The notes: generated by a model from the sequence alone, not told the origin. Counted from the stretch's first letter, positions 3,212 through 46,927 are shown. The stretch: 64,000 bases of DNA from a virus (IMGVR_UViG_3300017917_004503:1-64000), one strand, 5' to 3'. Numbers and translations: made by a program.

Positions 3212-3223
3212 CAAAAATACTTA

Positions 3224-3252
3224 GAAACGAACAACTAGATTTATTTTATAAT
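3224..3252 (+). promoter_or_regulatory. Middle-type promoter
   Basis: GAAAC-N18-TATAAT. Confidence 0.7.
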
Positions 3253-3273
3253 AATTTTACTTGAGTTTTAATT

Positions 3274-5884: not shown

Positions 5885-5897
5885 TTGTGCAATATAA

Positions 5898-7464: not shown

Positions 7465-7469
7465 AATAA

Positions 7470-13188: not shown

Positions 13189-13817
13189 TGATTTTAGGAC
13201 TCTCTGATTATAAAGATAAGTATGACTTTTCTGGTGTAACCGGTGTAATCCACGTCGGAGGACATCACGGTCAAGAATATGAAGACTATAACAATTTTTT
13301 CCGTAAGGATCTAAATATTCATTGGTTTGAACCTATTAGCGAATCGTTTGCTACGATGATTCAAAATATAGGATTGAAGCAAAACAACATTTTCTATAAT
13401 TTTGCATTGGGATCTGAAAAAACTTGGAAAAAAATGTGGAGAGATCTTCAGAATAATGGACAGAGCTCATCTTTTCTTAAACCCTCTAGACATCTTGAAA
13501 TATTCCCACATATAACTTTCAGTGAAACCCCCGATGAAATAGAAATTTACAGACTTGATGATCTCTGCATAAGAGATTCAAATGTTCTAGTAATGGACAC
13601 ACAGGGCTATGAACTTGAAATTCTTAAAGGTGCTAGTGAAACATTGCCCTTTATTGATCATATATTTTGTGAGGTGAACATCAATAACGTTTACGAAAAC
13701 TGTCCCGATTTGCAGTCTATTAATTCTTTTCTTGAAAATTACGGATTTCATTTAAAGGAAAATTGGTGGACATCTAATGATTGGGGTGATTGCTATTGGA
13801 ATAGAAATACAAATTAA
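13188..13817 (+). CDS. FkbM-family methyltransferase
   Basis: IHVGGHHGQE, WFEP, NFALG, SSSFLKP, RLDD, MDTQGYELEILKGA, CEVN. Confidence 0.88.
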   Translation: MILGLSDYKDKYDFSGVTGVIHVGGHHGQEYEDYNNFFRKDLNIHWFEPISESFATMIQNIGLKQNNIFYNFALGSEKTWKKMWRDLQNNGQSSSFLKPSRHLEIFPHITFSETPDEIEIYRLDDLCIRDSNVLVMDTQGYELEILKGASETLPFIDHIFCEVNINNVYENCPDLQSINSFLENYGFHLKENWWTSNDWGDCYWNRNTN

Positions 13818-20467: not shown

Positions 20468-21265
20468 ATGGCATTTAGAATTCAAATCAGAAGAGACGAA
20501 TCTGCAAAATGGGCAGTCAATAATCCAATTTTGCTAGAAGGCGAGATAGGTTATGAAACCAACACTACCTATATGAAAATAGGAGACGGTGTGACACCTT
20601 GGAATAATTTAGGATATTGGCAAGGTGGATTAACTGGTGCCGGATTAGTCGTTAAGAAAAATAACATTACTGTTCAATCCCCAACATCAAATCTTAATTT
20701 TTCTAATGATTTTGTTGTTGTTAGCGGAACTAATTACACTGCAACGGTAGGTTTAGCATCTTCACCTAGTGGTACATCTTTGAGCATATTTGAGGATGGA
20801 GTAGAAGGGTTAACCGGAGCAACTGGATTAAATTTCACAGGTAGAGCCGGAGCAGTAACTACAAACGGAAAAATTGCTAATATTAATCTTTTAGATCCTT
20901 ACAGCTCATACTTCTCAGTGACAGTTCTTCTGAGTGGTGGAAACTTTTCATCTTTTACTTCATCAAGAGGACCTGATGGTAACGCCTTAACCGGATCTCC
21001 GTGGAACTTTACATTAACAAATAGTGGTAATAATATAACGGTAACCCATAACACTGGGGGCAAACCTTTAAATCTTGTGACCTGTGCTACTAATAGTACG
21101 AATGTTTTCATTAAAAATCCTAATGGAACATCAACTGGAGCTTTCTCTTTAGCTTCGAATTTAGCATCTAGCTCTTTCACTGTTTACGGTGTAAATCAAT
21201 CTAATACGGGCGCAGATGCTGCAGGAACTGTTGAAATTGCTTGGACTTTTGGAGCCACTGCTTAA
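20468..21265 (+). CDS. Fibre/receptor-binding protein with Mtd-N (major tropism determinant N-terminal) domain
   Basis: RIQIRRD...W...NPILLEGEIGYET....KIGDGVTPWNNL. Confidence 0.8.
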   Translation: MAFRIQIRRDESAKWAVNNPILLEGEIGYETNTTYMKIGDGVTPWNNLGYWQGGLTGAGLVVKKNNITVQSPTSNLNFSNDFVVVSGTNYTATVGLASSPSGTSLSIFEDGVEGLTGATGLNFTGRAGAVTTNGKIANINLLDPYSSYFSVTVLLSGGNFSSFTSSRGPDGNALTGSPWNFTLTNSGNNITVTHNTGGKPLNLVTCATNSTNVFIKNPNGTSTGAFSLASNLASSSFTVYGVNQSNTGADAAGTVEIAWTFGATA

Positions 21266-21287: not shown

Positions 21288-23864
21288 ATGGATTTTGATA
21301 GATCGTTAATATTTCCTCCTAAACTTTTATACGGGTACACTGTATTCGGCACTATATCTGTTGATCAAACTTACAATGATCCTGGAAATCCTTATAACGG
21401 ATTCCCCTATAGATGGCAACTGAACATAAACGTTTCACCTCAACAACATTCGAATCCCGACACTCCTACCCCTTATATCTATGATGCAAATGACATCACT
21501 GAAGGTATGTGGATTGGCCAAATCAACGGTTACACTTACAAAATAGTTGATATAATTTCTGTAGCAGGGAATGAGAATTTAGTTGTTATAGTAGAAGATA
21601 CTGATTTTTTAAATTTAATAGCTTCTCCTGAACAAACTGGAAACAATGCTCCGTATGAGGATTTGCCTTTATTAATATTTAATTTGGATGACAACGGAAA
21701 TCCAATATTGAATCCGATCCAATCTCAAAGCAGTCAGCTTCCTGATTATTCCTACTGGATAAATGACATTGAATCTAGATTTAGATTTAGAAACTATTAT
21801 CAAAAATTTTTTTATATTCCACCTGGAGAAAATCCAACTGGATTGACAGGTGGAGACCCTGTTTACTTATCTGTGAACTCAACCTTCATTAAGGTTGATT
21901 CTACAAATCAGGACCAGGTCGATAAACTTTTTGGTTTTGTTAGTGGTGGAAATTTACCCCTACCTGGACATCTTACAGTAACTCCTTCTGGTAAATACTC
22001 AACAGATTTACCAAATCTTCCTGGTGTAACTGGTGACGTTTTATATCTAGACACTGTTTCTGGGAGCAATAATCTTACTAACGTAAAACCTGCTACAGGA
22101 CCGGTTAAACCGGTTTATATTAAAATTACGGACACTACAGGATTACTATTAACATCTGGAGGCGGAGGTGGAGGCGGAGGAAACGATATAGCGGTCTATG
22201 ACTCTTCTAATGTTGAAGTGACTCCCGGTGTAACTGGTTTCAAGTTTGATGGTGATGCAGTTGTTACAGCATCTGGTGATTTCGTAACAGTTACTGTAAA
22301 CTCTGGATCTAGTGGTTCATCAGGATCTAGTGGTTCGTCAGGATCTAGCGGTTCATCAGGAACTAGTGGTTCGTCAGGATCTAGCGGTTCATCAGGAACT
22401 AGTGGTTCGTCTGGATCGTCCGGATCTAGTGGCTCGTCCGGATCTAGTGGCTCGTCCGGGTCATCAGGATCCTCTGGAAACACTGGTCCGACCGGATCTG
22501 TTGGAGCTACCGGAGCGGGGGTTCCTACTGGAGGTGCAACTGGACAGTTTTTAGTAAAGTCATCAGGTGCAGATTATGCAACCGAATGGCAGGATTTAGT
22601 TCCTTCTGGAGCTATCTATCAGTTTGGTGCAACATCTGGATTCCCTGCAACCGGTTCAACCGCTGCTCTTTATATTTCAACAGGAACTAATGAAGGTTGG
22701 TACTGGACAGGGACAGCATATAAGGCACTTAGTCAATATGATAGCGACATAACAGTTTCTTTATCAGGAGGAAAAACTTTAGGAAGATATAGCACCGGAC
22801 AAACCATACCAGCAACGGGAAAAACCCCAAAAGACGTCATTCAATTATTGGCTGTTGAACCTATCAATCCTACAGTTTCATTAACTTCTTCGACTACCAT
22901 TGCTTTTAATCAAACCGCAATTAACAATGTACTGAATTTGAGTTATACCATTAATAGTTTGGGTGCAACGATATCAACATGTTCACTTGAGTGGAGAAGA
23001 GGTGGAGTTGGATCTTGGACTGTTTTATCAACATCAACGACAACTCCAACTACATATACCCATAGTTTAACAGATACTAATTATAACACACTAGCTTTTA
23101 ATTATAGATATATTGTCACTGACACTGTCGGTGGAACCACAACTGCAACACTTAACATTACTCCAGCTTCTTACGTTGCACCTAGTATTTCATTAACAGT
23201 TGCTGGAGTTACACTCACCTCCCCAGAGACGAATTCGACGAGAGAAAAAGGTAACGTTGATACGAATCTAAGCGGAACCGTCACTAGAAATAGTGCGAAT
23301 GTAGCCCTTACTAGTTATACCCTACAATTTCAGGTAAATGGTGGAGCTTTCAGTGATATAGGTAGTCCTGTTTCAATTGGACCTGGTACTAGCTCTATTC
23401 CTCTAACCAATCACAATCCTGTAGCTAATAACACTGCTAATACTATAGGATATAGAGTAAAAGTTATTGACGATTATCAGACCTATTTAGGATCACAGGT
23501 TTATTCTTCTACTTCAACAGTTACGTTTCTTAATCTTATTTTCTATGGTCCAAGCTCAACAGTTCCGACAACATCAGCTAACGTTAGAGCTTTAGGTAGT
23601 AGAATATTCACGACCGGAAGCAATCCTTTTAATTTAAATACAGGAAATACACTTGTTAATTTCACAGCTGCTATGCCAAATACTTTATCAATTACACAGG
23701 TGATAGATTTAGACGCTTTAAATGCTAATATTACGTCTAGTTATATTAACAATCCATTTAACGTTAATGACGCTGCAGGCAATGCTACAGCTTATAAGGT
23801 ATATACAATGACAATTGCTTCACCTTATTCAACAGACCATAGACATCAAATAACTAGAGCTTAA
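21288..23864 (+). CDS. Virion fibre protein with central (GSS/GTS)n repeat and Thr-rich beta domains
   Basis: Gly-X-Y Ser repeat at 22305-22478; Ig/FN3-like Thr-rich C-terminal half; in tail module. Confidence 0.65.
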   Translation: MDFDRSLIFPPKLLYGYTVFGTISVDQTYNDPGNPYNGFPYRWQLNINVSPQQHSNPDTPTPYIYDANDITEGMWIGQINGYTYKIVDIISVAGNENLVVIVEDTDFLNLIASPEQTGNNAPYEDLPLLIFNLDDNGNPILNPIQSQSSQLPDYSYWINDIESRFRFRNYYQKFFYIPPGENPTGLTGGDPVYLSVNSTFIKVDSTNQDQVDKLFGFVSGGNLPLPGHLTVTPSGKYSTDLPNLPGVTGDVLYLDTVSGSNNLTNVKPATGPVKPVYIKITDTTGLLLTSGGGGGGGGNDIAVYDSSNVEVTPGVTGFKFDGDAVVTASGDFVTVTVNSGSSGSSGSSGSSGSSGSSGTSGSSGSSGSSGTSGSSGSSGSSGSSGSSGSSGSSGSSGNTGPTGSVGATGAGVPTGGATGQFLVKSSGADYATEWQDLVPSGAIYQFGATSGFPATGSTAALYISTGTNEGWYWTGTAYKALSQYDSDITVSLSGGKTLGRYSTGQTIPATGKTPKDVIQLLAVEPINPTVSLTSSTTIAFNQTAINNVLNLSYTINSLGATISTCSLEWRRGGVGSWTVLSTSTTTPTTYTHSLTDTNYNTLAFNYRYIVTDTVGGTTTATLNITPASYVAPSISLTVAGVTLTSPETNSTREKGNVDTNLSGTVTRNSANVALTSYTLQFQVNGGAFSDIGSPVSIGPGTSSIPLTNHNPVANNTANTIGYRVKVIDDYQTYLGSQVYSSTSTVTFLNLIFYGPSSTVPTTSANVRALGSRIFTTGSNPFNLNTGNTLVNFTAAMPNTLSITQVIDLDALNANITSSYINNPFNVNDAAGNATAYKVYTMTIASPYSTDHRHQITRA
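22305..22478 (+). repeat. Coding tandem repeat (GSS/GTS triplets)
   Basis: 9/18/27-bp degenerate units such as GGATCTAGTGGTTCATCA. Confidence 0.9.
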
Positions 23865-23865
23865 G

Positions 23866-26800
23866 ATGCCATTAACACCAGGATTACAATTACCCTTTGG
23901 AGTACAACCAGTCAACCCTGTACCGGTTGACACATACTCTGGCCCTTATTCGGGAGTAACTGAATCAGCTGCTCTGAGCTCTGCAAATTCTTCTATACCT
24001 GGAGCTTTAAGATTTCAGTCTTTAGAAGTTAGATTAATATACGGTCCAACCGGATCTGCAGTACCCTATAAATATTGGTATTATGGTGGAACCGGGGATA
24101 GTGATTTAGTTCTTTTTTCAGCTGGTGGATCTGGTGTAACAGGACCAACTGGAGCATCTGGTAGCTCTGGATCATCTGGTAGCTCTGGATCATCTGGTAG
24201 CTCTGGATCATCTGGTAGCTCTGGATCATCTGGAACATCAGGAAGCTCCGGAACATCAGGAAGCTCTGGAACATCAGGAAGCTCTGGAACATCAGGAAGC
24301 TCTGGAACATCAGGATCTAGTGGCTCGTCCGGAACATCTGGTTCGTCAGGTTCTAGTGGTTCAGCAGGAACATCTGGTTCGTCAGGTTCTAGTGGTTCAG
24401 CAGGAACATCTGGATTGTCCGGAGCAACTGGAACCTCTGGATCTAGTGGATCTACCGGAACATCAGGATCATCAGGAACTTCTGGATCTAGTGGATCATC
24501 AGGAACCTCTGGATCATCAGGAACCTCTGGATCTAATGGATCATCAGGATCATCAGGATCATCAGGAACCTCTGGATCATCAGGATCATCAGGAACCTCT
24601 GGATCATCAGGATCATCAGGAACCTCTGGATCTTCAGGATCATCAGGAACCTCTGGATCTTCAGGAACCTCTGGATCTAATGGATCTTCAGGATCATCAG
24701 GATCATCAGGTACTTCTGGATCTTCAGGATCATCAGGTACTTCTGGATCATCAGGATCCTCTGGAACTAGCGGTGTTACTGGTCCAACCGGAGCTAATGG
24801 TATATCTGCTGGACAAGTTTATTATTTCAATGAAAGCCAAAATTCTGATGTATCTGGATATAAGGTTTTATCTATAACCCCGAGTGGGGCAGCTGAACAA
24901 ACAGTAACTACGAATTTAACAGGTCTTCAGCAGAATGTTTTGATTTCTGATTATATTACACCTCAGCTTGGATTTAACGTTATACCTGCAGGAAATCAAA
25001 GATTTCATATTCATCTTTTAAAACCAGCTTCTAACGATAATATTTCTTTGTATGTAGAGATCCAGTTGGCGAATTCGTCTGGAACCCCAATAGGTCCAAC
25101 GATAACATCTAGCGTTGCATCTGTTGGTTGGGTTAGTTCAATAGTTCCAGATACTGTTGAGACTGACATCACTTTATCTACAACTACCATAGATCCAACT
25201 AATAGAATGATAGTTAGACTCTATCTTAATAATAACGACGCAACATCTCACAGCGTTGTATATTATACGGAAGGATCATCATACTATTCTTTCGTTCAAA
25301 CGTCGGTTGGAGCTATAGCAGGAACTAGCGGAACTTCTGGCTCGTCCGGATCATCAGGAAGTTCTGGCTCGTCCGGATCATCAGGAAGTTCTGGCTCATC
25401 AGGAAGTTCTGGATCTAGTGGTCAAGATGGTATTTCTGGAGGTAGACCTTACTTTTTCAATCAGTCTGTTACGCAGACCCCGTTATCATATAAACAACTT
25501 GGACAAAATACTACTGGAGGTATTCAGCAAACAGTAGTCACTAATTTAACATCAAACCAACAAAATGTTTTAGTTGAAAGTTTCATAACTGATGTCGATG
25601 ACCCGTATCTTCTTTTAATCCCACAGGGATTATGGCATTCTTATGTTTATTGGACAAAACCAGCACAAAATGATAATATAACTTATTATTTTACTGTAAC
25701 TAAAAGAACATCAGGAGGGACAGAAACTCTATTGTTTACATCCGATAATAAACAAATTGGATGGGATACTAATAACACTACTCCGGTTGAGGTTGTTGCG
25801 AATGGTGTTGTTCCAACTAACACGTTAAACCTTACCGATAGAATTATAGTAAGTCTATATCTGAATAATAATGAAAATTCCAGTAAAACAGTTACCTTTT
25901 ATACTGAAAATGCAACTTATTCATACATTATAACAACTTTAACAACTCCTTCTGGTACTTCGGGGTCGTCCGGTACTTCAGGGTCTAGTGGCTCTTCAGG
26001 AAGCTCTGGTACTTCTGGATCTAGTGGCTCTTCTGGCACTAGAGGTTCATCTGGTTCATCAGGCACATCTGGTTCATCAGGCACATCTGGTTCATCAGGC
26101 ACATCTGGTTCATCAGGTACTTCTGGACTTGCTGGTATATCAGGGATCAATGGATCTGATGGATCCTCAGGATCCTCAGGTTCTAGTGGAGTGACCGGTG
26201 CATCAGGGTCTTCTGGAAGCAGCGGATCTAGCGGAACGTCTGGATCTTCTGGAAGCAGCGGAACGTCTGGATCTTCTGGAAGCAGCGGAACGTCTGGATC
26301 TAGTGGAACATCCGGGTCTAACGGGTCTTCTGGAAGCAGCGGATCTAGTGGAACTTCAGGATCTAGTGGAACATCTGGATCTTCTGGAAGCAGTGGAACC
26401 TCAGGCTCTTCTGGTTCTAGTGGAACCTCAGGATCTTCTGGAATTAGTGGTTCACAGGGACCAACCGGTTCTACTGGATCTGTTAGCGGACTTGTTCAAT
26501 ATGCAGGTTTAACTTTTACCAGTGGACCTGGATCAGATCTACAAACAATATATAATACCTCTTTGGATCCATCAATAACAGTAGGTACTACCGTAGGCGG
26601 TATAGCAGCTGGTACTACCGCAGGATTTTTATTTGGAAAAAATTTAGTCCAACTTTTTGATGACATATTATTTCCAACTTTATTGCCAACTTACACAATA
26701 CCAACTATAACTTTAACTTCTTCTGTTACTGGAATTTATGAAATCGGAGCTACACTATCTCCAAACCTAACAGCTTCTGGAACTAAAAATGATGCTGGAG

Positions 26801-27513
26801 CTTTTAGTTATCTTGGTATTTCTAGATTACCTAATGGAACTAGTGCGGTCCAAATTGGATCTACTGGATCACCAACGATAGCCTCTGCTACAGCAATACC
26901 GTCACAATTTGGATATGCTAGTCCTAATAACCCGAATTATTCTTATAGCTTCATAAAGGGTGATTCACTCACTGGTCCAGCTCCACTTTCAGGAAATAAT
27001 AGTACATTAGTTTATTCTGCAACTGGTAGCTATAGTGCAGGTTTAGCTAAGCAGAATAATAAAGGTGCAACAGATACACGCACTCCTTTAGTCAGAAGTA
27101 CCAGCGCTCCTCAAGATTCTTCAACGAATTTTGCTGCTTCAAATGTAACTTTGACCGGATATTATCCATATTATTACGGTAAAAGTTCAACACAGCAAAC
27201 AGCTTCTAACATCGTGTCTATCATTCAAAGCGGAACTGGATTTACTAAAGTCGTTGCATCTGGATCTGGATCTTTATCTATGGCTTTCAACGCTTCTAGT
27301 GAATGGCCTTGGTTTGCAATTTTCAGCGGATATTCAACTAAAACAGCTTGGTATGAAACACCTTTAAATAACGGAAGTATTGGATCTCCGACAGATTTGT
27401 TTGCTTCGCCAACGACACTTTCGATTATTTCGCCTGATGGTTATTGGGTTGTTACTTATAAAGTTTACCCTTCAAATAAAATAACCACATTGGGTACAGC
27501 CTCAATTTCTTAA
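23866..27513 (+). CDS. Long fibre protein with three (GSS/GTS)n blocks and an internally duplicated globular domain
   Basis: Repeat blocks at about 24151-24773, 25321-25422, 25954-26460; duplicated domain YYFNES..YKVL..EQTVTTNLT..QQNVL / YFFNQS..YKQL..QQTVVTNLT..QQNVL. Confidence 0.7.
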   Translation: MPLTPGLQLPFGVQPVNPVPVDTYSGPYSGVTESAALSSANSSIPGALRFQSLEVRLIYGPTGSAVPYKYWYYGGTGDSDLVLFSAGGSGVTGPTGASGSSGSSGSSGSSGSSGSSGSSGSSGTSGSSGTSGSSGTSGSSGTSGSSGTSGSSGSSGTSGSSGSSGSAGTSGSSGSSGSAGTSGLSGATGTSGSSGSTGTSGSSGTSGSSGSSGTSGSSGTSGSNGSSGSSGSSGTSGSSGSSGTSGSSGSSGTSGSSGSSGTSGSSGTSGSNGSSGSSGSSGTSGSSGSSGTSGSSGSSGTSGVTGPTGANGISAGQVYYFNESQNSDVSGYKVLSITPSGAAEQTVTTNLTGLQQNVLISDYITPQLGFNVIPAGNQRFHIHLLKPASNDNISLYVEIQLANSSGTPIGPTITSSVASVGWVSSIVPDTVETDITLSTTTIDPTNRMIVRLYLNNNDATSHSVVYYTEGSSYYSFVQTSVGAIAGTSGTSGSSGSSGSSGSSGSSGSSGSSGSSGSSGQDGISGGRPYFFNQSVTQTPLSYKQLGQNTTGGIQQTVVTNLTSNQQNVLVESFITDVDDPYLLLIPQGLWHSYVYWTKPAQNDNITYYFTVTKRTSGGTETLLFTSDNKQIGWDTNNTTPVEVVANGVVPTNTLNLTDRIIVSLYLNNNENSSKTVTFYTENATYSYIITTLTTPSGTSGSSGTSGSSGSSGSSGTSGSSGSSGTRGSSGSSGTSGSSGTSGSSGTSGSSGTSGLAGISGINGSDGSSGSSGSSGVTGASGSSGSSGSSGTSGSSGSSGTSGSSGSSGTSGSSGTSGSNGSSGSSGSSGTSGSSGTSGSSGSSGTSGSSGSSGTSGSSGISGSQGPTGSTGSVSGLVQYAGLTFTSGPGSDLQTIYNTSLDPSITVGTTVGGIAAGTTAGFLFGKNLVQLFDDILFPTLLPTYTIPTITLTSSVTGIYEIGATLSPNLTASGTKNDAGAFSYLGISRLPNGTSAVQIGSTGSPTIASATAIPSQFGYASPNNPNYSYSFIKGDSLTGPAPLSGNNSTLVYSATGSYSAGLAKQNNKGATDTRTPLVRSTSAPQDSSTNFAASNVTLTGYYPYYYGKSSTQQTASNIVSIIQSGTGFTKVVASGSGSLSMAFNASSEWPWFAIFSGYSTKTAWYETPLNNGSIGSPTDLFASPTTLSIISPDGYWVVTYKVYPSNKITTLGTASIS
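24151..24773 (+). repeat. Coding tandem repeat (GSS/GTS), includes 4 perfect 18-bp units
   Basis: GGTAGCTCTGGATCATCT x4 at 24160-24231, then GGAACATCAGGAAGCTCT units. Confidence 0.92.
25954..26460 (+). repeat. Coding tandem repeat (GSS/GTS)
   Basis: GGCACATCTGGTTCATCA and GGAAGCAGCGGAACGTCTGGATCTTCT units. Confidence 0.9.
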
Positions 27514-27557
27514 TTTTCTTGTTAATCTGATTATTCTATGGAAGAGTTGGAAACCTG

Positions 27558-27565
27558 AATATATA
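27558..27565 (+). promoter_or_regulatory. Late promoter motif
   Basis: AATATATA before S74 fibre gene. Confidence 0.6.
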
Positions 27566-27613
27566 GTATTGAATAAATCAACAAAACAAATAAGACCGAA
27601 CTCCCTGTAATAT

Positions 27614-29851
27614 ATGGCAATAAATTTAAGTGATAATATTTTAGCAAAAACCACTGCACCCGCAGATGCTAAATATGGACCTTACTCTGGGGGTAGTACT
27701 GCTGCTGCAATAAATGCAGCGACCGGTTATCTTATCTCATCATATAGATACGAAGGTCTGACTATAGGTTTACAAGTAGGTGCTAACCCGATTGTAGAAT
27801 ATTGGTTTTACGGAGGAATTTTAGATGCAAATTTAACTCAAAAGGTTGTTTCTGGCTCGAATGGTACCTCTGGTTCTTCAGGATCTAGCGGAACATCGGG
27901 TTCTTCAGGATCTAGTGGTACCTCTGGTTCTTCAGGTTCTAGTGGAACATCAGGTTCTTCAGGATCTAGCGGAACATCAGGATCCTCTGGTTTGGGTGGA
28001 TCCTCAGGAACTTCTGGACTTGCCGGTATATCTGGTGTTAATGGATCCGATGGAACATCAGGTTCTTCAGGATCTAGCGGGACTTCAGGTTCTTCAGGGT
28101 CTAGTGGGACTTCAGGTTCTTCAGGATCTAGTGGGACTTCAGGTTCTTCAGGATCTAGTGGGACTTCAGGTTCTTCAGGATCTAGTGGGACTTCAGGTTC
28201 TTCGGGATCTAGCGGAACATCAGGATCTAATGGTTCTTCAGGATCTAGCGGAACATCTGGTTCTAATGGTTCTTCAGGATCTAGCGGAACATCAGGTTCT
28301 TCCGGGTCTAGTGGATCTAGTGGATCGGCTGGAACAGCTGGAGCCCCTGGAGTAGATGGCGCATCTGGAACATCTGGAACAGCGGGTTCAAGCGGTTCCA
28401 CCGGTACATCTGGATCTAGTGGTTCTTCTGGTACATCTGGATCTAGTGGTTCTTCTGGTACATCTGGATCTAGTGGTTCTTCTGGAACTAGAGGATCTTC
28501 AGGCTCTTCTGGAACTAGTGGTTCTAGTGGATCCAGTGGTTCTAGTGGTTCTAGTGGAACATCGCCAACGGTATCTGGATCTAATAATCAGATATTAACA
28601 TCTGATGGTTCAGGTGGAATTGTTTCTGAAACTAATTTAGAGTTTGATGGAAATAAACTATCGGTATTATATCAATCTGGTGATGAAGGTGGTGAAATAT
28701 TTTTAAATAAAGCAGTTACAAATACAACATTAAATGGTGGTATAACAATAGATTCATATCAAAATAAATTAAGATTTTTCGAACAAGGAGGCACTGCAAG
28801 AGGAGCTTATATAGATCTAACAGCATGTGCTGCTGGAGTTGGAACCGATTTATTAAGCGGTGGTGGTGGAGGCGGATCTAATGGATCTTCCGGATCAAGC
28901 GGATCGTCTGGCACTTCCGGATCAAGCGGATCGTCTGGCACTTCCGGATCAAGTGGATCTTCTGGAACCAGAGGTTCATCAGGTTCATCAGGTTCATCAG
29001 GTTCATCAGGAACCAGTGGATTGACTTGTACCTCTTATACAGTAACAGAAACCGCTAACTCCGGTGCAAGTTTCGATTATGAACCCTGTGGATCTCCCGG
29101 AACGGTTATTGGTTATATTCTAACTGCTTTGCAATCTGTTACTTTGTGTGCGGTTAACGGAACAGTAGTTCAGACTAGCGGAACTATATCAATTACAGAT
29201 AACGGTTTATGTTCTGGATCCTCGGGATCATCTGGCTCTTCTGGATCCTCGGGATCATCTGGCTCTTCGGGGACCTCAGGATCATCTGGATCTTCTGGTA
29301 CCAGAGGATCATCAGGATCATCAGGTACATCTGGTCAGGCAGGCGCAAGCGGAACTGTTAATACTATATCTAAATTTACATCATCTACAACAGTAGGTAA
29401 TTCTAACGCCACTGACGATGGCACTACATTCGAGATATCTACATCTAATTTGAAAGTTACATCTAGCGTAGCTGTAGGATCTATTACAGCTTCGGGTGTT
29501 TCTGGTCGAATTGATGCTTCGAATGACGTCGTTGCTTTTTCTACATCTGATATTAGATTTAAAGAAAATATTAAACCGATAGAAAATGCTCTAGATAAAA
29601 TTCAAAAAATTGGAGGATACACTTTCGATTGGAAAGACGATCAAAACCTTAAGGTACTCCATGGATTTTCTGGACCTGATGTTGGTGTAATAGCTCAAGA
29701 GATTGAATCGATATTACCAGAAACTGTAAAAACTAAACCTAATGGATTTAAAGGTGTAAAATACGAAAAAATCGTACCTTTATTAATTCAAGCAATAAAA
29801 GAACTTTCTCAAGAAGTTGAAGATTTGAAAAAAATCAAAAATATACAATAA
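27614..29851 (+). CDS. Trimeric fibre with (GSS/GTS)n blocks and C-terminal peptidase S74 intramolecular chaperone
   Basis: SDIRFKENIKPIENALDKI, GVIAQEIE..LPE.V, VKYEKIVPLLIQAIKEL. Confidence 0.85.
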   Translation: MAINLSDNILAKTTAPADAKYGPYSGGSTAAAINAATGYLISSYRYEGLTIGLQVGANPIVEYWFYGGILDANLTQKVVSGSNGTSGSSGSSGTSGSSGSSGTSGSSGSSGTSGSSGSSGTSGSSGLGGSSGTSGLAGISGVNGSDGTSGSSGSSGTSGSSGSSGTSGSSGSSGTSGSSGSSGTSGSSGSSGTSGSSGSSGTSGSNGSSGSSGTSGSNGSSGSSGTSGSSGSSGSSGSAGTAGAPGVDGASGTSGTAGSSGSTGTSGSSGSSGTSGSSGSSGTSGSSGSSGTRGSSGSSGTSGSSGSSGSSGSSGTSPTVSGSNNQILTSDGSGGIVSETNLEFDGNKLSVLYQSGDEGGEIFLNKAVTNTTLNGGITIDSYQNKLRFFEQGGTARGAYIDLTACAAGVGTDLLSGGGGGGSNGSSGSSGSSGTSGSSGSSGTSGSSGSSGTRGSSGSSGSSGSSGTSGLTCTSYTVTETANSGASFDYEPCGSPGTVIGYILTALQSVTLCAVNGTVVQTSGTISITDNGLCSGSSGSSGSSGSSGSSGSSGTSGSSGSSGTRGSSGSSGTSGQAGASGTVNTISKFTSSTTVGNSNATDDGTTFEISTSNLKVTSSVAVGSITASGVSGRIDASNDVVAFSTSDIRFKENIKPIENALDKIQKIGGYTFDWKDDQNLKVLHGFSGPDVGVIAQEIESILPETVKTKPNGFKGVKYEKIVPLLIQAIKELSQEVEDLKKIKNIQ
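27853..28563 (+). repeat. Coding tandem repeat (GSS/GTS), includes near-perfect 27-bp units
   Basis: GGTTCTTCAGGATCTAGTGGGACTTCA units from 28061 to about 28200. Confidence 0.92.
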
Positions 29852-29853
29852 TT

Positions 29854-30987
29854 ATGGCAGATCCAGTTGCATATAAATATCAAGTTTCTTCGGGACAAAA
29901 TCTAATTACTACCTATTGGAGTTCAGTCTTTATAGGACTAACTGGTCCTTCTGTTCAGAATTTTTCAGAACCATATATAGATGGCAAGTTGAATTTTAGA
30001 AATGGAATTCAGGCAACAGGTGGTTTTAATTATGTTCTTTATTCTGATGAATATAATCAAGGTTTAGGTATCGAAGAAGCTGATTCGTTAGCAGTTGGCT
30101 GGACTTGTTCATCGGATCAGGGAAGTCTTTTATCACTAATCAATAAAATACCGGAAAGATTTAGACAGGCCGAATTTGGATCATATCAGGAAGCTATAGA
30201 ATGGCTAATCTCTCAAAATAAATATTTTTTGGTTAATAAAAGTTACCCGTCTATTGCTTATAACAACAAGACGATGGTTGCTGCATACGATCCAACATAT
30301 CTTGGATGCTATCCTGATGTTGGTAATTTTTTTTATGATTTATCTGGTATATCAACATCACCAGCACAACTTGAAAATGGCGCTGAAATATCGGGATTGT
30401 CTTATTTTAATTTTGATGAGGGTCTTAGTCAATATGCAAATATTCCTAGTGGGGTTTTATCCACATTAGTATCAACGAATAATTTCGAGTGTAGTATTTC
30501 TATTTGGTTTAAATCTGGAAGTATTCCTTCAGGTGGTTCTAATTATACGATATTTCAGCTATCCGCAAGTTCAGGATCTCCTAACCCTGACTGGTTTAGA
30601 CTTTTTATTAATGATGCAGGTGAACTTTATTCTACGTATACTATAAATCAAAAGGATAATTTTACAGATGATATATTAAATGTTACAGTAGGAGCTTGGT
30701 ATCATTTTGTTGTAACTATAAGTCTTAATAAAACTAGTGGTAAAACCGGCGTTACCTATTATATAAATGGCAGCTTTCTCTCTGGATCAGTTCATAATTT
30801 AGTTACTCCTCCTTTTACTTTCGATGGAGTTGAAGATTATAATCATCTTTTTGCAGCAGCCTCATCATCGGGTGCTATAGACAGCAGTAGTTATTTAAGA
30901 GGAAGTATCGGCTCTTTTTACATTTACTCAGGAATATTAGATTCTTCAGAAGTTTCAAAGTTGTATTATGAAACCAATTTTTATTAG
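29854..30987 (+). CDS. LamG/concanavalin A-like lectin domain virion protein
   Basis: YPDVG..FYDLSG, FNFD, SISIWFK, WYHFVVT, YYING, GSIGSFYIYSGIL...EV..LY. Confidence 0.75.
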   Translation: MADPVAYKYQVSSGQNLITTYWSSVFIGLTGPSVQNFSEPYIDGKLNFRNGIQATGGFNYVLYSDEYNQGLGIEEADSLAVGWTCSSDQGSLLSLINKIPERFRQAEFGSYQEAIEWLISQNKYFLVNKSYPSIAYNNKTMVAAYDPTYLGCYPDVGNFFYDLSGISTSPAQLENGAEISGLSYFNFDEGLSQYANIPSGVLSTLVSTNNFECSISIWFKSGSIPSGGSNYTIFQLSASSGSPNPDWFRLFINDAGELYSTYTINQKDNFTDDILNVTVGAWYHFVVTISLNKTSGKTGVTYYINGSFLSGSVHNLVTPPFTFDGVEDYNHLFAAASSSGAIDSSSYLRGSIGSFYIYSGILDSSEVSKLYYETNFY

Positions 30988-31015
30988 AAACACATTCCAC
31001 CTTATCTACTATAAT
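30987..31015 (+). promoter_or_regulatory. Middle-type promoter for the GT4/Aah-like operon
   Basis: GAAAC-N18-TATAAT. Confidence 0.7.
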
Positions 31016-31062
31016 GTATAATTCACTGTATTTTAATCGGTGAAATTTTTAATATTATAATT

Positions 31063-31335
31063 ATGGCAGAACAAATTAAATTACCAGAAGATCTTATTCT
31101 AGAGATCCAAAAACTAAGAGATGAGCTAACCCAAAATGTTGTTAGAATTGGAAGGCTTAATGTTCAGGCTTCTTTCTATAAAAAGGATCTACAGATTATA
31201 GAGAAAGATCTCGAATTACATTACGAAACCGCTGAAAGAATTTCAATTGATGAAGAAAGACTCCAAGCTAAGGTCATCGAAAAATATGGAACTGGAAAAT
31301 TAGATTTCGAAACTGGAATTTTCTATAAAGATTAA
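31063..31335 (+). CDS. Small coiled-coil protein
   Basis: Heptad pattern, C-terminal EKYGTGKLDFETGIF; first gene after middle promoter 30987. Confidence 0.6.
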   Translation: MAEQIKLPEDLILEIQKLRDELTQNVVRIGRLNVQASFYKKDLQIIEKDLELHYETAERISIDEERLQAKVIEKYGTGKLDFETGIFYKD

Positions 31336-31336
31336 T

Positions 31337-32344
31337 TTGAGTACATCGGACAAAATAAAAATTGTTTATGTAACACCCCATCTTTCTACCGGGGGGTTGC
31401 CGCAGTATCTCACGAAGAAAATAGAACTTTTTTCTAAAAGCTCTGACGTTTACTGTGTAGAATATAGCTTTTTAGGATCTGATTTCGTGGTTCAAAGAAA
31501 TAGAATAATAGAAATTCTTGGCGAAAGATTTTTTTCTTTAGATAACGATAAATCTCGTCTAGTTGAGATAATATCAAAGTTAGATCCACATGTAGTACAC
31601 TTTGAGGAATTACCTGAAACTTTTGTAGATTTAAATATTCTCAAAAAAATCTATCATCCTGACAGAAAATATTTCATCTGCGAAACCTGTCACAGCTCGA
31701 CATATGAGCCTTCGATTAAGACGTTCAAACCTGATAAATTCATCATGGTTAACAGGTGGATAGAAGAAAAATTCAAAATACTAGATATACCTTCTGAAAT
31801 ATTGGAATATCCAATAGAACATAAAAAGATAGATAAAAGGGCAAGTTTAGAAAAGATCGGGCTCAACCCGGAGATAAAGCACGTTGTTAATATTGGCTTA
31901 TTTACACCTGGTAAAAATCAAGGTGAACTGTTTGAATATGCTAGATCACTAGAGAAACTTCCAATAGAATTTCACTTTGTTGGTAACCAAGCTCCTAACT
32001 TTGAATCTTATTGGTCCGAATTGATGAAAGAAATTCCTACTAACTGTAGGATTTGGGGAGAAAGAAGCGATGTAGAATTATTTTATCAGGCAGCAGATCT
32101 ATTTGTTTTCACCTCTAAACTCGAATTAAATCCACTGGTAATAAAGGAATCACTATCGTTTAAATTGCCATGTATGATTTACGATCTTCACACTTACAAG
32201 GATGAGTATAAAAATAATCCACTCGTTTCTTTTTTAACACCCGATATGGAAAAAAATACCTTTAAAATTCTAGAAATTTTAGGGTTCGTGAAAAAAATTA
32301 AGAAGAATTATGATAATCCACGAATCGTCAATTTCAATTTATAA
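31337..32344 (+). CDS. GT4-family (GT-B) glycosyltransferase
   Basis: PHLSTGGLPQY, NIGLFTPGKNQ, FYQAADLFVFTSKLELNPLVIKES. Confidence 0.85.
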   Translation: MSTSDKIKIVYVTPHLSTGGLPQYLTKKIELFSKSSDVYCVEYSFLGSDFVVQRNRIIEILGERFFSLDNDKSRLVEIISKLDPHVVHFEELPETFVDLNILKKIYHPDRKYFICETCHSSTYEPSIKTFKPDKFIMVNRWIEEKFKILDIPSEILEYPIEHKKIDKRASLEKIGLNPEIKHVVNIGLFTPGKNQGELFEYARSLEKLPIEFHFVGNQAPNFESYWSELMKEIPTNCRIWGERSDVELFYQAADLFVFTSKLELNPLVIKESLSFKLPCMIYDLHTYKDEYKNNPLVSFLTPDMEKNTFKILEILGFVKKIKKNYDNPRIVNFNL

Positions 32345-33488
32345 TGACATTGAAAAGTCTGATAATCACATTTTCAGTAATAAAATAAAAATCAAAATTT
32401 GTTTTGATTATCTACCAAAAGTAACTATTGAATTTGGTGACTTTATGAGAGAACCTTATAAGGTCTATATGATCGAAAAATCTGGTCGAATTTTACACAC
32501 TGATCAAATTTCAACCGGAATTTATACTTTAGCATTTAGAAGATGGATTGAAGACCTTGATATTTTAGTTTATGATAATAAAGATGCGTTAGTAAAAAAA
32601 TTTAACCTCTTTGATAAAATAAAATCAGGAAAGGTTTTAATTGCGATTGAAAGTTCTTCATTAGGTGACACCTTAGCTTGGATCCCCTATGTCAATCAAT
32701 TTATTGAGACTCATAATTGTTCTAATGCAACTGTTACTACTTTTTGGAATGATCTTTTTGAAGATCAGTATCCTGGATTTAATTTAAAATATCCAGGATA
32801 CAGAGAAAATGACATTGATGTTCTTATCGGTGTTGGCTGGTATGATGAAGCAGATCCAAATAAGCATAAGATAGATCCTAGAACAGTCCCGCTTCAAAAG
32901 GTTGCTTCTGATATTTTAGGTGTTGAATATTTGGGTGAAATCAAGCCTAGAATAAAATCAACAGGTAAAAGACCCACAGAGAAAACTAAAAATGTTTGTA
33001 TAGCTACCGAATCAACTGCTGCAGCTAAGCATTGGAATAATCCGAATGGATGGCAGGAGCTAATTAATCTTTTGACCCAATCCGGGTATGTTGTTAATGT
33101 GATACAAAAACAACCAACTCATCTATTGGATGTTGTTGATAAAACTGGTGATATTGACATAAGCGAAAGAATAAATGATTTGATTAATTGTGATTTTTTC
33201 ATTGGAATCGGATCTGGACTTTCTTGGTTAGCATGGAGTTTAGATGTTCCTGTTGTTTTAATCTCTGGTTTTAGTAAACCTTTTTGTGAGTTTAGCGATA
33301 AAACTCTCAGAATCATAGATGAGTCTGTGTGCAATGGCTGTTTCAACAATCCCCAGTATTTTTTCGACCGTGGAGATTGGATGTGGTGTCCCGTACATAA
33401 AGATACTGATAGACACTTTGAGTGTACCAAGGTAATCACTCCTTATCAGGTGTTTCGCCAAATAAATTTCTGGAAAAATACTTTATAA
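32310..33488 (+). CDS. Aah/TibC-family (autotransporter O-heptosyltransferase-like) protein glycosyltransferase
   Basis: SLGDTLAW, ST..AKHWNNPNGW, FFIGIGSGLSWLAW...PVVLISGF, and the 4-Cys metal motif CNGC..FD..DW.WCP.HK.T.RHFECT. Confidence 0.85.
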   Translation: MIIHESSISIYNDIEKSDNHIFSNKIKIKICFDYLPKVTIEFGDFMREPYKVYMIEKSGRILHTDQISTGIYTLAFRRWIEDLDILVYDNKDALVKKFNLFDKIKSGKVLIAIESSSLGDTLAWIPYVNQFIETHNCSNATVTTFWNDLFEDQYPGFNLKYPGYRENDIDVLIGVGWYDEADPNKHKIDPRTVPLQKVASDILGVEYLGEIKPRIKSTGKRPTEKTKNVCIATESTAAAKHWNNPNGWQELINLLTQSGYVVNVIQKQPTHLLDVVDKTGDIDISERINDLINCDFFIGIGSGLSWLAWSLDVPVVLISGFSKPFCEFSDKTLRIIDESVCNGCFNNPQYFFDRGDWMWCPVHKDTDRHFECTKVITPYQVFRQINFWKNTL

Positions 33489-46921: not shown

Positions 46922-46927
46922 GTTCAC

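What the first reader, a model, noticed from the sequence alone, without database searches (positions are those of the whole stretch)
21288..33488. Candidate virion protein O-glycosylation system: Gly-Ser-Ser collagen-like fibres next to an Aah/TibC-family transferase
Seen: three adjacent fibre genes hold hundreds of Ser/Thr in strict Gly-X-Y register (GSS, GTS, almost no Pro); one ends in an S74 trimer chaperone. Directly downstream, under their own middle promoter (30987), are a coiled-coil protein, a GT4 and an enzyme with the full Aah/TibC signature including the 4-Cys metal motif. Known: Aah/TibC hyper-glycosylate Ser on repeat autotransporter adhesins; glycosylated Thr occurs in BclA and stabilises Riftia cuticle collagen. 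Inference: the phage repurposes this family to glycosylate its own fibres, with GT4/GT2/GT6/GT7 and methylases extending the glycan, giving a mucin-like coat for helix stability, shielding or adhesion. No autotransporter and no clear ADP-heptose pathway is in the window, so the donor may be new. Enzymes made in middle phase would be ready before late substrates.
Basis: partly seen in the sequence, partly recalled or inferred. Interest (0 to 1): 0.9.

Follow-up and report, generated by a model that had tools for sequence, protein, structure and literature searches.

The report
Phage TibC-like enzyme beside serine-collagen fibres
A large uncultured T4-like phage carries three proline-free Gly-Ser/Thr-Ser "collagen-like" fibre genes together with a true relative of TibC, the enzyme E. 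coli uses to sugar-coat an adhesin; the pairing recurs across phages and bacteria, so the phage probably sugar-coats its own fibres, though no sugar has been measured.

Summary
Three adjacent genes (21288-29851) hold 858 residues in strict Gly-X-Y register: 502 Ser/Thr and 5 Pro. The third ends in a Peptidase_S74 chaperone. Downstream lie a GT4 and a 392-aa protein that passes TIGR04414 (259 bits, cut-off 200). It keeps TibC's catalytic Asp, sugar-binding residues and four iron-finger Cys, and its model matches TibC (TM 0.85-0.88).

On a 121-sequence tree the enzyme falls in a sister clade of the autotransporter heptosyltransferases. With at least 8 kb of flank, 31 of 38 sister-clade loci have a proline-poor Ser/Thr-rich Gly-X-Y gene nearby, against 0 of 20 classical loci. 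Within this phage's own clade, fibres and GT4+TibC are present or absent together.

Corrections: the coiled-coil gene and the promoter at 30987 are core, also found in relatives without the enzymes. GT6 does not co-vary with the enzyme. Heptose remains plausible, because some relatives encode GmhA and HldE.

Nothing is shown biochemically. This scan has already reported the same pairing on other DNA (127 notes in at least 99 genomes). I found no published report of it.

The parts
20468..21265 (+). 265-aa protein with an Mtd_N (major tropism determinant N-terminal) domain. It is the first gene of the accessory fibre insertion.
   Evidence: Pfam PF18454 at 1.6e-12. PHROGs tail fibre/spike N-termini. 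Absent from the enzyme-less relatives L030-L032 and L036. Present with the fibres in G006.
21288..23864 (+). Fibre F1, 858 aa. It has one 72-residue Gly-X-Y tract (17 GSS triplets) at residues 340-411.
23866..27513 (+). Fibre F2, 1215 aa. It has 447 Gly-X-Y residues in three tracts (216 Ser, 48 Thr, 3 Pro) separated by globular domains.
   Evidence: Pfam Collagen at 7.8e-59.
27614..29851 (+). Fibre F3, 745 aa. It has 339 Gly-X-Y residues (162 Ser, 34 Thr, 1 Pro) and a C-terminal Peptidase_S74 intramolecular trimer chaperone (residues 645-706).
29854..30987 (+). 377-aa Laminin_G_3 / concanavalin-A-like lectin-fold protein, the last gene of the fibre insertion. It may be a fibre-tip or glycan-binding part (inference).
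   Evidence: Pfam PF13385 at 3.2e-11. Homologs follow the last fibre in L003, L016 and L017. Absent from enzyme-less relatives.
30987..31015 (+). Promoter-like motif GAAAC-N18-TATAAT upstream of the coiled-coil gene. It is a core element, not specific to the transferases.
   Evidence: 17 matches against 6.8 expected. The same motif lies at -42 of the coiled-coil gene in enzyme-less relatives.
31063..31335 (+). 90-aa coiled-coil protein. It is a core gene of the neck module that lies between the two insertions and is not part of the glycosylation module.
   Evidence: Present at 56-67% identity in all relatives, including L030-L032 and L036, which lack both fibres and transferases.
31337..32344 (+). 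GT4-family glycosyltransferase, 335 aa. It is a candidate second transferase of the pathway.
   Evidence: Pfam Glycos_transf_1 at 6.3e-11. A homolog lies next to the TibC-like gene in 38 of 49 viral sister-clade representatives. It is fused to the TibC-like domain in L025.
32310..33488 (+). TibC/Aah-family (GT9, BAHT) protein O-glycosyltransferase, 392 aa, of the sister clade. It has an N-terminal beta-barrel, a GT-B catalytic domain and a 4-Cys iron finger, with a shortened thumb region.
   Evidence: TIGR04414 at 259.4 bits against a cut-off of 200. PDB 4RAP at 4e-54. AF2 pLDDT 94.4 and Foldseek TM 0.85-0.88 to TibC. Residue table.
13188..13817 (+). FkbM-family methyltransferase, 209 aa. It is a candidate sugar O-methyltransferase of the pathway, and the link is weak in this genome.
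   Evidence: Pfam PF05050 at 3.7e-15 and TIGR01444. FkbM domains are fused to GT4 and/or the TibC-like domain in L025, L005 and Mel-JY01. Here the gene stands alone 17 kb upstream.

Best explanation
The region is an accessory virion-fibre cassette with its own protein-glycosylation enzymes.

What is shown:
- Five genes (Mtd_N protein, fibres F1-F3, a lectin-fold protein) and two genes (GT4, TibC-like GT9) are inserted on either side of a core coiled-coil gene. The site is the neck/tail module of a T4-like huge phage, between the gp15-like and neck-protein genes.
- The fibres carry about 500 Ser/Thr in proline-free Gly-X-Y register.
- At least F3 has a C-terminal S74 trimer chaperone.

What is inferred:
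- In the infected cytoplasm the TibC-like enzyme uses its conserved catalytic Asp (D120) to transfer a sugar from a nucleotide donor onto Ser/Thr hydroxyls of the Gly-Ser/Thr-Ser repeats. The donor is most probably ADP-heptose, because R287 keeps TibC's adenine contact.
- GT4, and possibly an FkbM methyltransferase, then extend or decorate that first sugar.
- The result would be a densely O-glycosylated, mucin-like trimeric fibre on the virion.
- The sugar may replace proline/hydroxyproline in stiffening the triple helix, but this is speculation.

The family membership, the gene architecture and the comparative association are shown. The acceptor, the sugar and the effect on the fibre are inferred.
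For: Family membership:
- TIGR04414 scores 259 bits against a cut-off of 200, and PDB TibC scores 4e-54.
- D110, T226, K230, R286, W305 and Cys339/342/358/370 of TibC (PMC4358343) are all conserved in the window enzyme.
- The AF2 model has pLDDT 94.4 and matches TibC over its full length at TM 0.85-0.88. LPS heptosyltransferases reach only about 0.5.

Association seen from the enzyme:
- The tree of 121 representatives has a classical clade of 31 rows, including an E. coli plasmid enzyme next to an autotransporter. None of these has a Ser/Thr-rich Gly-X-Y neighbour.
- The sister clade of 90 rows, which holds the window, has 54 with such a neighbour.
- With at least 8 kb of flank on both sides the counts are 31 of 38 against 0 of 20. 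In 19 loci the gene lies within 200 bp.
- The sister clade includes bacteria whose adjacent genes are small signal-peptide or lipobox proteins made of (G-S/T-S/T)n.

Within the phage's own clade:
- L030, L031, L032 and L036 have PKD-gp15-o20106-coiled coil-neck, without the fibre block and without GT4+TibC.
- G003, the complete 430 kb genome that holds L032, has no TIGR04414 match and only short, proline-containing collagen tracts.
- The apparent Ala/Gln-fibre exception was resolved. G006 has fibres of 789 aa and more than 2,600 aa with S52-62 T18-29 at its other contig end.

Fusions: L025 has GT4+GT9+FkbM in one 959-aa polypeptide, and L005 has an X+TibC fusion directly before a 953-aa GSS protein.

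Association seen from the fibres: 19 of 77 viral records chosen only for a GSS-coding pattern carry the family, and 7 of 8 among records of at least 100 kb with at least 150 such residues.

Donor: GmhA and the HldE kinase domain are present in enzyme-bearing complete relatives G005 and G007, and G005 also has the adenylyltransferase domain. The enzyme-less G003 has none.
Against: - No glycan has been observed on any of these fibres. The whole case rests on gene neighbourhood.
- The joint presence or absence within the T4-like clade may be a single evolutionary event.
- Both gene sets lie in a hypervariable fibre region, where accessory genes tend to collect.
- Ser/Thr-rich Gly-X-Y fibres exist without the enzyme. 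Examples are the complete 34.6 kb phage G042, the 88%-complete 270 kb G054, and 2 of 9 positives among 50-100 kb records. The enzyme is therefore not required for such fibres.
- Seven sister-clade loci with full flanks show no Gly-X-Y gene (L004, L088, L091, L171, L199, L211, and L018 where the contig is cut).
- The window's 151 kb record has no GmhA, HldE or GmhB.
- In a broader sample only 1 of 14 enzyme-bearing records has GmhA, and neither of the two near-complete ones does.
- The adenine-contact Arg is kept in only 38 of 90 sister-clade members. The sugar, and for many members even the nucleotide, is uncertain.
- The host is unknown, so host supply of ADP-heptose could not be checked.
- The thumb region needed for TibC's dodecamer is shortened (18 against 27 residues), so the mode of substrate engagement must differ from TibC-TibA.
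Confidence: 0.6

Rival explanations
1. The adjacency has no functional meaning. Fibre genes and glycosyltransferases are both accessory cargo that collects in the same hypervariable island. The TibC-like enzyme would then modify something else, such as another virion protein (capsid decoration, neck, baseplate) or a host envelope protein, lipoprotein or LPS, for example to block superinfection.
For: - The module lies in a variable slot of the neck/tail region.
- The same genome has a second candidate glycosylation module and many other sugar genes.
- Ser/Thr-rich Gly-X-Y fibres occur without the enzyme.
- Some sister-clade loci have no Gly-X-Y neighbour.
- Bacteria encode GSS-repeat lipoproteins, so a host protein of that kind could in principle be the target.
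Against: - The association holds in unrelated phage types and in bacterial chromosomes of several phyla, where no phage fibre island exists. There the partner is always the same repeat type.
- 19 loci have the two genes within 200 bp.
- 0 of 31 classical-clade loci show the trait.
- In this family the characterised enzymes are encoded next to their substrates (PMC4358343).
Confidence: 0.2
2. The enzyme does glycosylate the fibres, but with a sugar other than heptose and possibly from a different nucleotide. The sister clade would have changed donor specificity, and the window's own NDP-hexose/6-deoxyhexose genes (Gmd, bPGM-like nucleotidyltransferase fusion) or host UDP/GDP sugars would feed it.
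For: - No heptose-pathway gene is present in the 151 kb record.
- GmhA is in only 1 of 14 enzyme-bearing records in the broad sample.
- The adenine-contact Arg is replaced by V, I, T or L in 52 of 90 sister-clade members.
- The stereoselectivity position (Pro300 in TibC, Ser294 in AAH) is Gly in the window and in 68 of 90 sister-clade members.
- The window encodes a full GDP-mannose to 6-deoxyhexose route.
Against: - The window enzyme itself keeps R287 and W306, which are the adenine N1 and heptose O4 contacts in TibC.
- Whenever a phage GmhA was found, it was in an enzyme-bearing genome (G005, G007, G008, G016). It was never found in an enzyme-less one.
- G005 has V at the Arg position and still encodes the ADP-heptose enzymes.
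- Most Gram-negative hosts make ADP-heptose (established knowledge, not checked for this host).
Confidence: 0.15
3. The Gly-Ser-Ser tracts are unmodified flexible linkers or spacers, not collagen helices and not acceptors. The transferases would serve host-surface or capsule remodelling.
For: - Proline-free, uncharged Gly-X-Y tracts are expected to form weak triple helices on their own (established collagen biophysics, from memory).
- Only F3 has a recognisable trimerisation chaperone.
Against: - The strict triplet register is kept over as many as 237 residues here and more than 2,000 in relatives. That is not needed for a mere linker.
- The repeat type is tied to one enzyme clade.
Confidence: 0.05

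Closest known systems
TibC-TibA and Aah-AIDA-I of E. coli (bacterial autotransporter heptosyltransferases, BAHT; TIGR04414; PDB 4RAP/4RB4; PMC4358343)
   Same: - Same protein family and fold: N-terminal beta-barrel, GT-B catalytic domain and 4-Cys iron finger.
- The catalytic Asp and the ADP-heptose contact residues are conserved.
- It is a cytoplasmic enzyme encoded next to a highly repetitive Ser-rich protein, which it would hyper-glycosylate on many Ser/Thr.
   Different: - It falls in a sister clade, not the autotransporter-linked clade.
- The presumed acceptor is a Gly-X-Y collagen-like repeat of a phage fibre, not a beta-helical autotransporter passenger.
- The thumb region that builds TibC's dodecamer ring is 9 residues shorter.
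- The stereoselectivity position is Gly.
- It is partnered with a GT4, and elsewhere with an FkbM methyltransferase.
- The donor is unverified.
Mycobacteriophage virion O-glycosylation (Che8, Corndog, Myrna; Freeman et al. 2023, cited from earlier scan notes and from memory, not read here)
   Same: Phage-encoded glycosyltransferases that modify the phage's own virion proteins in the host cytoplasm.
   Different: - The enzyme families differ (not GT9/BAHT).
- The acceptors there are C-terminal extensions of capsid and tail-tube proteins, not collagen-like fibres.
- That system is demonstrated experimentally, whereas this one is only predicted.
Glycosylated collagen-like proteins: BclA of Bacillus anthracis (Gly-Pro-Thr repeats with rhamnose-anthrose glycans) and Riftia cuticle collagen (galactosyl-Thr at the Y position). 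From memory, not tested here.
   Same: Gly-X-Y repeats with Thr or Ser as O-glycan acceptors. In Riftia the sugar replaces hydroxyproline in stabilising the helix.
   Different: - Those repeats contain proline, whereas these are essentially proline-free and Ser-dominated.
- The transferases are unrelated.
- No stability data exist for Gly-Ser-Ser helices.
SdgA/SdgB (GT4) glycosylation of Ser-Asp repeat adhesins in Staphylococcus
   Same: A GT4 enzyme decorates Ser in a long dipeptide-like repeat of a surface protein. The window's GT4 has weak hits to SdgA and SdgB (24.7 and 18.3 bits).
   Different: The scores are far below the cut-off of 800 bits and reflect only generic GT4 similarity. The repeat chemistry also differs.

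Membership tests
BAHT (Aah/TibC autotransporter O-heptosyltransferase, TIGR04414) | Sequence score above the curated equivalog cut-off | tested here: met
   259.4 bits against a cut-off of 200, covering 12-372 of 374 profile positions.
BAHT (Aah/TibC autotransporter O-heptosyltransferase, TIGR04414) | Catalytic base Asp110 and ligand residues Thr226, Lys230, Arg286 and Trp305 | tested here: met
   D120, T236, K240, R287 and W306 in P0007. Arg286 is kept in only 38 of 90 members of the sister clade.
BAHT (Aah/TibC autotransporter O-heptosyltransferase, TIGR04414) | Four-Cys iron-finger motif (Cys339, 342, 358, 370) | tested here: met
   C341, C344, C360 and C372 align. Iron binding itself cannot be tested here.
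BAHT (Aah/TibC autotransporter O-heptosyltransferase, TIGR04414) | Overall protomer fold: N-terminal beta-barrel plus an atypical GT-B domain | tested here: met
   AF2 model with pLDDT 94.4. Foldseek to 4RAP gives TM 0.85-0.88 over 392 columns.
   The thumb region is 27 residues in all 31 classical members but 18 in the window enzyme. There is an 8+1 residue gap at Phe265/Val266 of TibC. The oligomeric state cannot be tested here.
BAHT (Aah/TibC autotransporter O-heptosyltransferase, TIGR04414) | Encoded next to, and acting on, an autotransporter adhesin | tested here: not met
   No autotransporter is present; the neighbours are Gly-X-Y fibres. On the tree the enzyme lies in the sister clade of the autotransporter-linked enzymes. 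It is therefore a member of the protein family but not of the 'autotransporter' functional subgroup.
BAHT (Aah/TibC autotransporter O-heptosyltransferase, TIGR04414) | Uses ADP-heptose as donor | tested here: inconclusive
   The contact residues are kept. GmhA and HldE are present in the enzyme-bearing relatives G005 and G007 but not in the window's 151 kb record or the near-complete G014 and G018.
Collagen-like triple-helix protein (Pfam PF01391) | Uninterrupted Gly at every third residue over long tracts | tested here: met
   Tracts of 42-237 residues. Pfam Collagen E-values run from 2.9e-10 to 7.8e-59.
Collagen-like triple-helix protein (Pfam PF01391) | Trimerisation domain that registers the three chains | tested here: met
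   F3 has a Peptidase_S74 intramolecular chaperone (1.1e-17). No recognised trimerisation domain was found in F1 or F2.
Collagen-like triple-helix protein (Pfam PF01391) | Helix-stabilising residues (Pro/Hyp or charged pairs), and an actual triple helix | tested here: not met
   Only 5 Pro and 9 charged residues occur among 858 tract residues. Whether a helix forms, with or without glycans, cannot be tested with these tools.
GT4 glycosyltransferase | Glycos_transf_1 C-terminal domain above the gathering score | tested here: met
   42.5 bits against a cut-off of 26.4. Its specificity is unknown.

The most novel reading that the evidence does not exclude
A previously unrecognised sister clade of the autotransporter heptosyltransferases is specialised for (Gly-Ser/Thr-Ser/Thr)n repeats. 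It would build heptose-coated 'glyco-collagen' in two settings: virion fibres hundreds of nanometres long on many large phages, and small secreted lipoproteins in diverse bacteria. Dense O-heptosylation, further extended by a GT4 and methylated, would take the place of proline/hydroxyproline in stiffening the triple helix. It would also give phages a sugar coat for adhesion or shielding.
Probability: 0.3. Interest if true: 0.85.

Novelty: new variant of a known kind. Interest (0 to 1): 0.68.

Why it matters
- **Rarity of the phenomenon:** virion glycosylation by phage-encoded enzymes has been shown experimentally only in a few mycobacteriophages. This system would be a second, mechanistically different and far more widespread one, with at least 572 viral contigs carrying the enzyme.
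- **The enzyme family:** it would widen the BAHT family from a virulence-adhesin speciality to a general Ser/Thr-repeat glycosylation system with a new acceptor fold.
- **Collagen biology:** it would offer a natural test of whether sugars can replace hydroxyproline in stabilising a collagen helix.
- **Phage biology:** glycan-coated fibres would affect host recognition, adherence to mucus or particles, and immune or defence recognition.
- **Testability:** the question can be tested directly. A cultured phage (Microcystis phage Mel-JY01) carries the system, and E. coli already makes ADP-heptose for co-expression assays.
- **A practical by-product:** the repeats break metagenome assemblies and are mis-annotated, as in Mel-JY01.

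Tried and rejected
- **Coiled-coil protein as part of the module:** rejected. It is core in relatives that lack the fibres and enzymes.
- **'Own middle promoter' for the transferases:** rejected as stated. The same motif precedes the coiled-coil gene in enzyme-less relatives.
- **Upstream GT6/GT7/Gmd cluster as glycan extenders of this system:** GT6 does not co-vary with the enzyme. The others were not tested and are left open.
- **HAD+NTP_transferase fusion (4077-5432) as a GmhB/HddC-type heptose enzyme:** rejected. It is beta-phosphoglucomutase-like (TIGR02009/TIGR01990), with no GmhB match.
- **Ala/Gln-rich fibres in the L003/L011/L034 group as counter-examples:** rejected. Those contigs break inside the repeats, and the complete relative G006 has more than 2,500 Ser/Thr-rich Gly-X-Y residues at its other end.
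- **G004/L039 (Gly-Ser-Ser fibres, no enzyme) as a counter-example:** inconclusive. The record is only 26% complete.
- **megablast of the region against cultured phages:** no match. Only 4 of 50,697 phage records encode a relative.
- **PHROGs:** no family for the enzyme.
- **Literature searches linking TibC or heptosyltransferase with collagen-like proteins or phage fibres:** nothing found.
- **Phage-encoded GmhA as a general marker:** not general, 1 of 14 in the broad sample.
- **G007's opposite contig end:** it gave no fibre genes, so its fibres remain unseen.

Full report
**1. Setting.**
The window is the first 64 kb of a 151 kb IMG/VR virus record that CheckV rates about 52% complete. Gene content marks a distant T4-like myovirus:
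- UvsX/RecA-like, DnaB-like and gp46/47-like (SbcCD) genes;
- a gp15-like tail completion protein and a neck-protein-like gene of 829 aa;
- large terminase, sheath and tube genes.

Earlier scan notes call it a huge phage of Bacteroidota. I did not test the host.

**2. Observation.**
Three adjacent + strand genes hold long Gly-X-Y tracts:

| Gene | Coordinates | Length | Gly-X-Y tracts (residues) |
|---|---|---|---|
| F1 | 21288-23864 | 858 aa | 72 |
| F2 | 23866-27513 | 1215 aa | 228, 42, 177 |
| F3 | 27614-29851 | 745 aa | 237, 54, 48 |

Together they hold 858 residues in register: 415 Ser, 87 Thr, 5 Pro and 9 charged. The main triplets are GSS (160) and GTS (66). F3 ends in a Peptidase_S74 intramolecular chaperone (1.1e-17).

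Downstream come a Laminin_G_3 lectin-fold protein (29854-30987), a 90-aa coiled-coil protein (31063-31335), a GT4 (31337-32344) and a 392-aa GT9 protein (32310-33488).

**3. The enzyme is a true TibC/Aah relative.**
- It scores 259.4 bits on TIGR04414 against a cut-off of 200, and 4e-54 against TibC, PDB 4RAP.
- The TibC paper (PMC4358343) names the defining residues. These are the catalytic base Asp110; Thr226 and Lys230 (beta-phosphate); Arg286 (adenine N1, the basis of ADP specificity); Trp305 (heptose O4); and the iron finger Cys339/342/358/370.
- All of these are conserved here, as D120, T236, K240, R287, W306 and C341/344/360/372.
- An AlphaFold2 model built on 85 homologs has pLDDT 94.4. 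It superposes on TibC over its full length, including the N-terminal beta-barrel, at TM 0.85-0.88. The LPS heptosyltransferases WaaF and WaaC reach only about 0.5.

Two differences stand out. The position that sets D,D- against L,D-heptose selectivity (Pro300 in TibC, Ser294 in AAH) is Gly. The beta-hairpin thumb region, which builds TibC's dodecamer, is 18 residues against 27 in every classical member.

**4. A clean insertion/deletion comparison within the phage's own clade.**
Thirty relatives were fetched through the neck gene. Most have the order coiled coil, GT4, TibC-like, neck, with Gly-X-Y fibres upstream.
- Four loci (L030, L031, L032, L036) instead read PKD, gp15, o20106, coiled coil, neck.
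- The window reads PKD, gp15, o20106, [Mtd_N, F1, F2, F3, LamG], coiled coil, [GT4, TibC-like], neck.

The fibre block and the transferase pair are therefore two insertions on either side of a core coiled-coil gene, and they are present or absent together.

G003, the genome that holds L032, is a complete 430 kb record with terminal repeats. It has no TIGR04414 match anywhere. Its collagen-like tracts are short (63 residues or fewer) and contain proline, of the GPT/GAT/GPQ type.

One group of relatives (L003, L011, L022, L034, L013) seemed to pair the enzyme with Ala/Gln-rich fibres. Those contigs break inside the repeats. In the complete relative G006 the other contig end carries a 789-aa fibre (S62 T18) and a fibre of more than 2,600 aa with 2,169 Gly-X-Y residues (S52 T29).

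**5. The association is general, and it defines a clade.**

I scored every locus for an ORF with at least 36 Gly-X-Y residues, at least 55% Ser+Thr at the X/Y positions and at most 5% Pro. A maximum-likelihood tree of 121 non-redundant catalytic domains splits with 100% SH-aLRT support on both sides.

| Clade | Rows | With the neighbour | With at least 8 kb of flank on both sides |
|---|---|---|---|
| Classical (E. coli plasmid enzyme next to an autotransporter; Caballeronia, Pandoraea, Acetobacter, Selenomonadaceae) | 31 | 0 | 0 of 20 |
| Sister clade (holds the window) | 90 | 54 | 31 of 38 |

In 19 of the 54 positive loci the partner gene lies within 200 bp. The Fisher p-value is about 5e-10, but it overstates independence because the split is a single branch.

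More telling is the spread of the sister clade across very different phages and across bacterial MAGs and genomes. These include Gammaproteobacteria, Arenicellales, Acidiferrobacterales, Methylococcales including a complete Methylobacter chromosome, Polaromonas and Schekmanbacteria. In the bacteria the neighbours are small signal-peptide or lipobox proteins made of (G-S/T-S/T)n, often with acidic tails. There is no phage fibre island in those genomes to explain the adjacency.

**6. Partner enzymes.**
- A GT4 homolog lies beside the enzyme in 38 of 49 viral sister-clade representatives, 5 of 29 bacterial ones and 0 of 30 classical ones.
- In L025/G005, GT4, the TibC-like domain and an FkbM methyltransferase form one 959-aa polypeptide.
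- In L005, a GT4+FkbM fusion and a further methyltransferase precede a 711-aa X+TibC fusion and a 953-aa GSS protein.
- The cultured Microcystis phage Mel-JY01 has a 1226-aa fusion annotated 'methyltransferase FkbM' whose C-terminus is the TibC-like domain.

GT4 and O-methylation therefore belong to the phage version of the pathway. The window's FkbM gene (13188-13817) is a candidate only.

**7. The reverse test.**
Eighty viral loci were picked only by a DNA pattern that encodes Gly-Ser-Ser repeats. Of the 77 whole records that could be searched, 19 carry the family, although their median completeness is below 20%.
- Among records of at least 100 kb with at least 150 Ser/Thr-rich Gly-X-Y residues, 7 of 8 carry it.
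- Among 50-100 kb records only 2 of 9 do.
- A complete 34.6 kb phage with such a fibre has none.

So the enzyme nearly always comes with such fibres, but the fibres do not require the enzyme.

**8. The donor.**
The window's 151 kb record has no GmhA, HldE or GmhB. Its upstream sugar cluster (19-8444) makes NDP-hexose and 6-deoxyhexose. The cluster holds a beta-phosphoglucomutase-like domain fused to a nucleotidyltransferase, a Gmd at 386 bits, an SDR fused to a C-methyltransferase, a GT6 and a GT7.

Among the complete relatives:
- G005 and G007, which carry the enzyme, encode GmhA (NF001628 at 239 bits in G005) and the HldE kinase domain (301-315 bits).
- G005 also has the adenylyltransferase domain (107 bits).
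- G006, which carries the enzyme, has no GmhA and no kinase domain, only a weak adenylyltransferase-domain match (54 bits).
- G003, which lacks the enzyme, has none of these.

In a broader sample GmhA occurred in 1 of 14 enzyme-bearing records and 0 of 16 enzyme-less ones. Every phage GmhA seen lies in an enzyme-bearing genome, but most such phages would have to draw on host ADP-heptose. Heptose is the best guess and is not established.

**9.
- The coiled-coil protein is core.
- The GAAAC-N18-TATAAT motif at 30987 is real and enriched, with 17 matches against 6.8 +/- 2.8. It also lies 42 nt upstream of the coiled-coil gene in the enzyme-less relatives, so it is the core promoter of the coiled-coil/neck unit. 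Its temporal class was not tested.
- GT6 occurs in G003 and is missing from G005 and G007.

**10. Mechanism proposed.**
- Shown: the family, fold, residues, architecture and comparative association.
- Inferred: cytoplasmic transfer of a sugar (probably heptose from ADP-heptose) to Ser/Thr of the Gly-X-Y tracts by the D120 base; extension or decoration by GT4 and a methyltransferase; assembly of trimeric glycan-coated fibres, with F3 folded by its S74 chaperone.
- Also inferred: the insertion site between the gp15-like and neck genes hints at neck or whisker fibres, by analogy with the position of T4 wac. PHROGs matches are to tail-fibre families.
- Speculative: helix stabilisation by the sugars, by analogy with glycosylated Thr in Riftia collagen (from memory).

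**11. Novelty.**
I found no paper linking this enzyme family to collagen-like proteins or phage fibres. PHROGs v4 has no family for the enzyme, and only 4 of 50,697 deposited phage records encode it.

Within this scan the same pairing has been reported repeatedly on other DNA: 127 notes in at least 99 genomes. This window is therefore another instance, not a first sighting.

What this window adds:
- the clean joint presence/absence comparison against a complete enzyme-less relative;
- the demotion of the coiled-coil gene and the promoter to core status;
- the resolved Ala/Gln exception;
- the thumb deletion;
- the partial GmhA/HldE co-occurrence.

Noticed in passing
window 19-8444: A nucleotide-sugar cluster. 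It holds a Methyltransf_24 O-methyltransferase, an 875-aa SDR epimerase/dehydratase fused to a sugar C-methyltransferase, and a 451-aa beta-phosphoglucomutase-like HAD fused to a sugar-1-P nucleotidyltransferase. It also holds a GT6, a GT7-C and a GDP-mannose 4,6-dehydratase (386 bits). This implies a C-methylated 6-deoxyhexose glycan whose target is unknown. GT6 does not co-vary with the TibC-like gene.
   Followed up: partly
L064-L070, L075, L078, L082, L083, L087, L089, L106 (bacterial genome contigs): In several bacterial phyla the sister-clade enzyme lies next to small signal-peptide or lipobox proteins. These consist of (Gly-Ser/Thr-Ser/Thr)n repeats, often ending in poly-Asp/Glu. This looks like an undescribed class of probable glycolipoproteins.
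   Followed up: partly
L224 (Microcystis phage Mel-JY01, PP395634) 2-3049 +: A 1016-aa open frame with 606 Gly-X-Y residues (Ser/Thr-rich) runs off the start of the record and is not annotated as one gene. The record annotates opposite-strand hypothetical CDSs there instead. This is the only cultured phage found with the system.
   Followed up: partly
L003, L011, L013-L017, L021, L144-L169 and others: Many IMG/VR contigs start or end inside the Gly-X-Y repeats. The repeats evidently break metagenome assemblies, which hides fibres and biases co-occurrence counts downward.
   Followed up: partly
L025:6636-9515 (G005); L005:5341-10879: Multi-enzyme fusions. L025 has GT4+GT9(TibC-like)+FkbM in one 959-aa protein. 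L005 has a 918-aa GT4+FkbM protein, a 218-aa methyltransferase and a 711-aa protein of unknown N-terminal domain fused to the TibC-like domain.
   Followed up: partly
L007-L009 (viral contigs), about 9941-10975: A more distant TibC-like subfamily (34% identity) lacks the whole iron-finger segment and has no Gly-X-Y neighbour.
   Followed up: no
G005:C1:119364-119834, 39709-40644, 317823-318215; G007:C1:209835-210305, 288795-289718: Phage-encoded ADP-heptose pathway genes (GmhA, HldE kinase domain, HldE adenylyltransferase domain) are scattered through the complete huge-phage genomes, not clustered. No GmhB was found.
   Followed up: partly
window 23866-29851: F2 and F3 share a roughly 80-residue N-terminal domain that ends in a (Y/F)W(Y/F)YGG motif. 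F2 contains two copies of a roughly 170-residue globular domain between its collagen tracts. Neither domain matches any family.
   Followed up: no
window 38734-42081: The sheath-like gene encodes 1115 aa, with only its last 100 residues or so matching Phage_sheath_1C. That is unusually long for a tail sheath.
   Followed up: no
window 46316-47539: A dCMP deaminase is followed by an ECF-type sigma factor (Sigma70 regions 2 and 4). This fits earlier notes on a sigma cascade in this phage.
   Followed up: no
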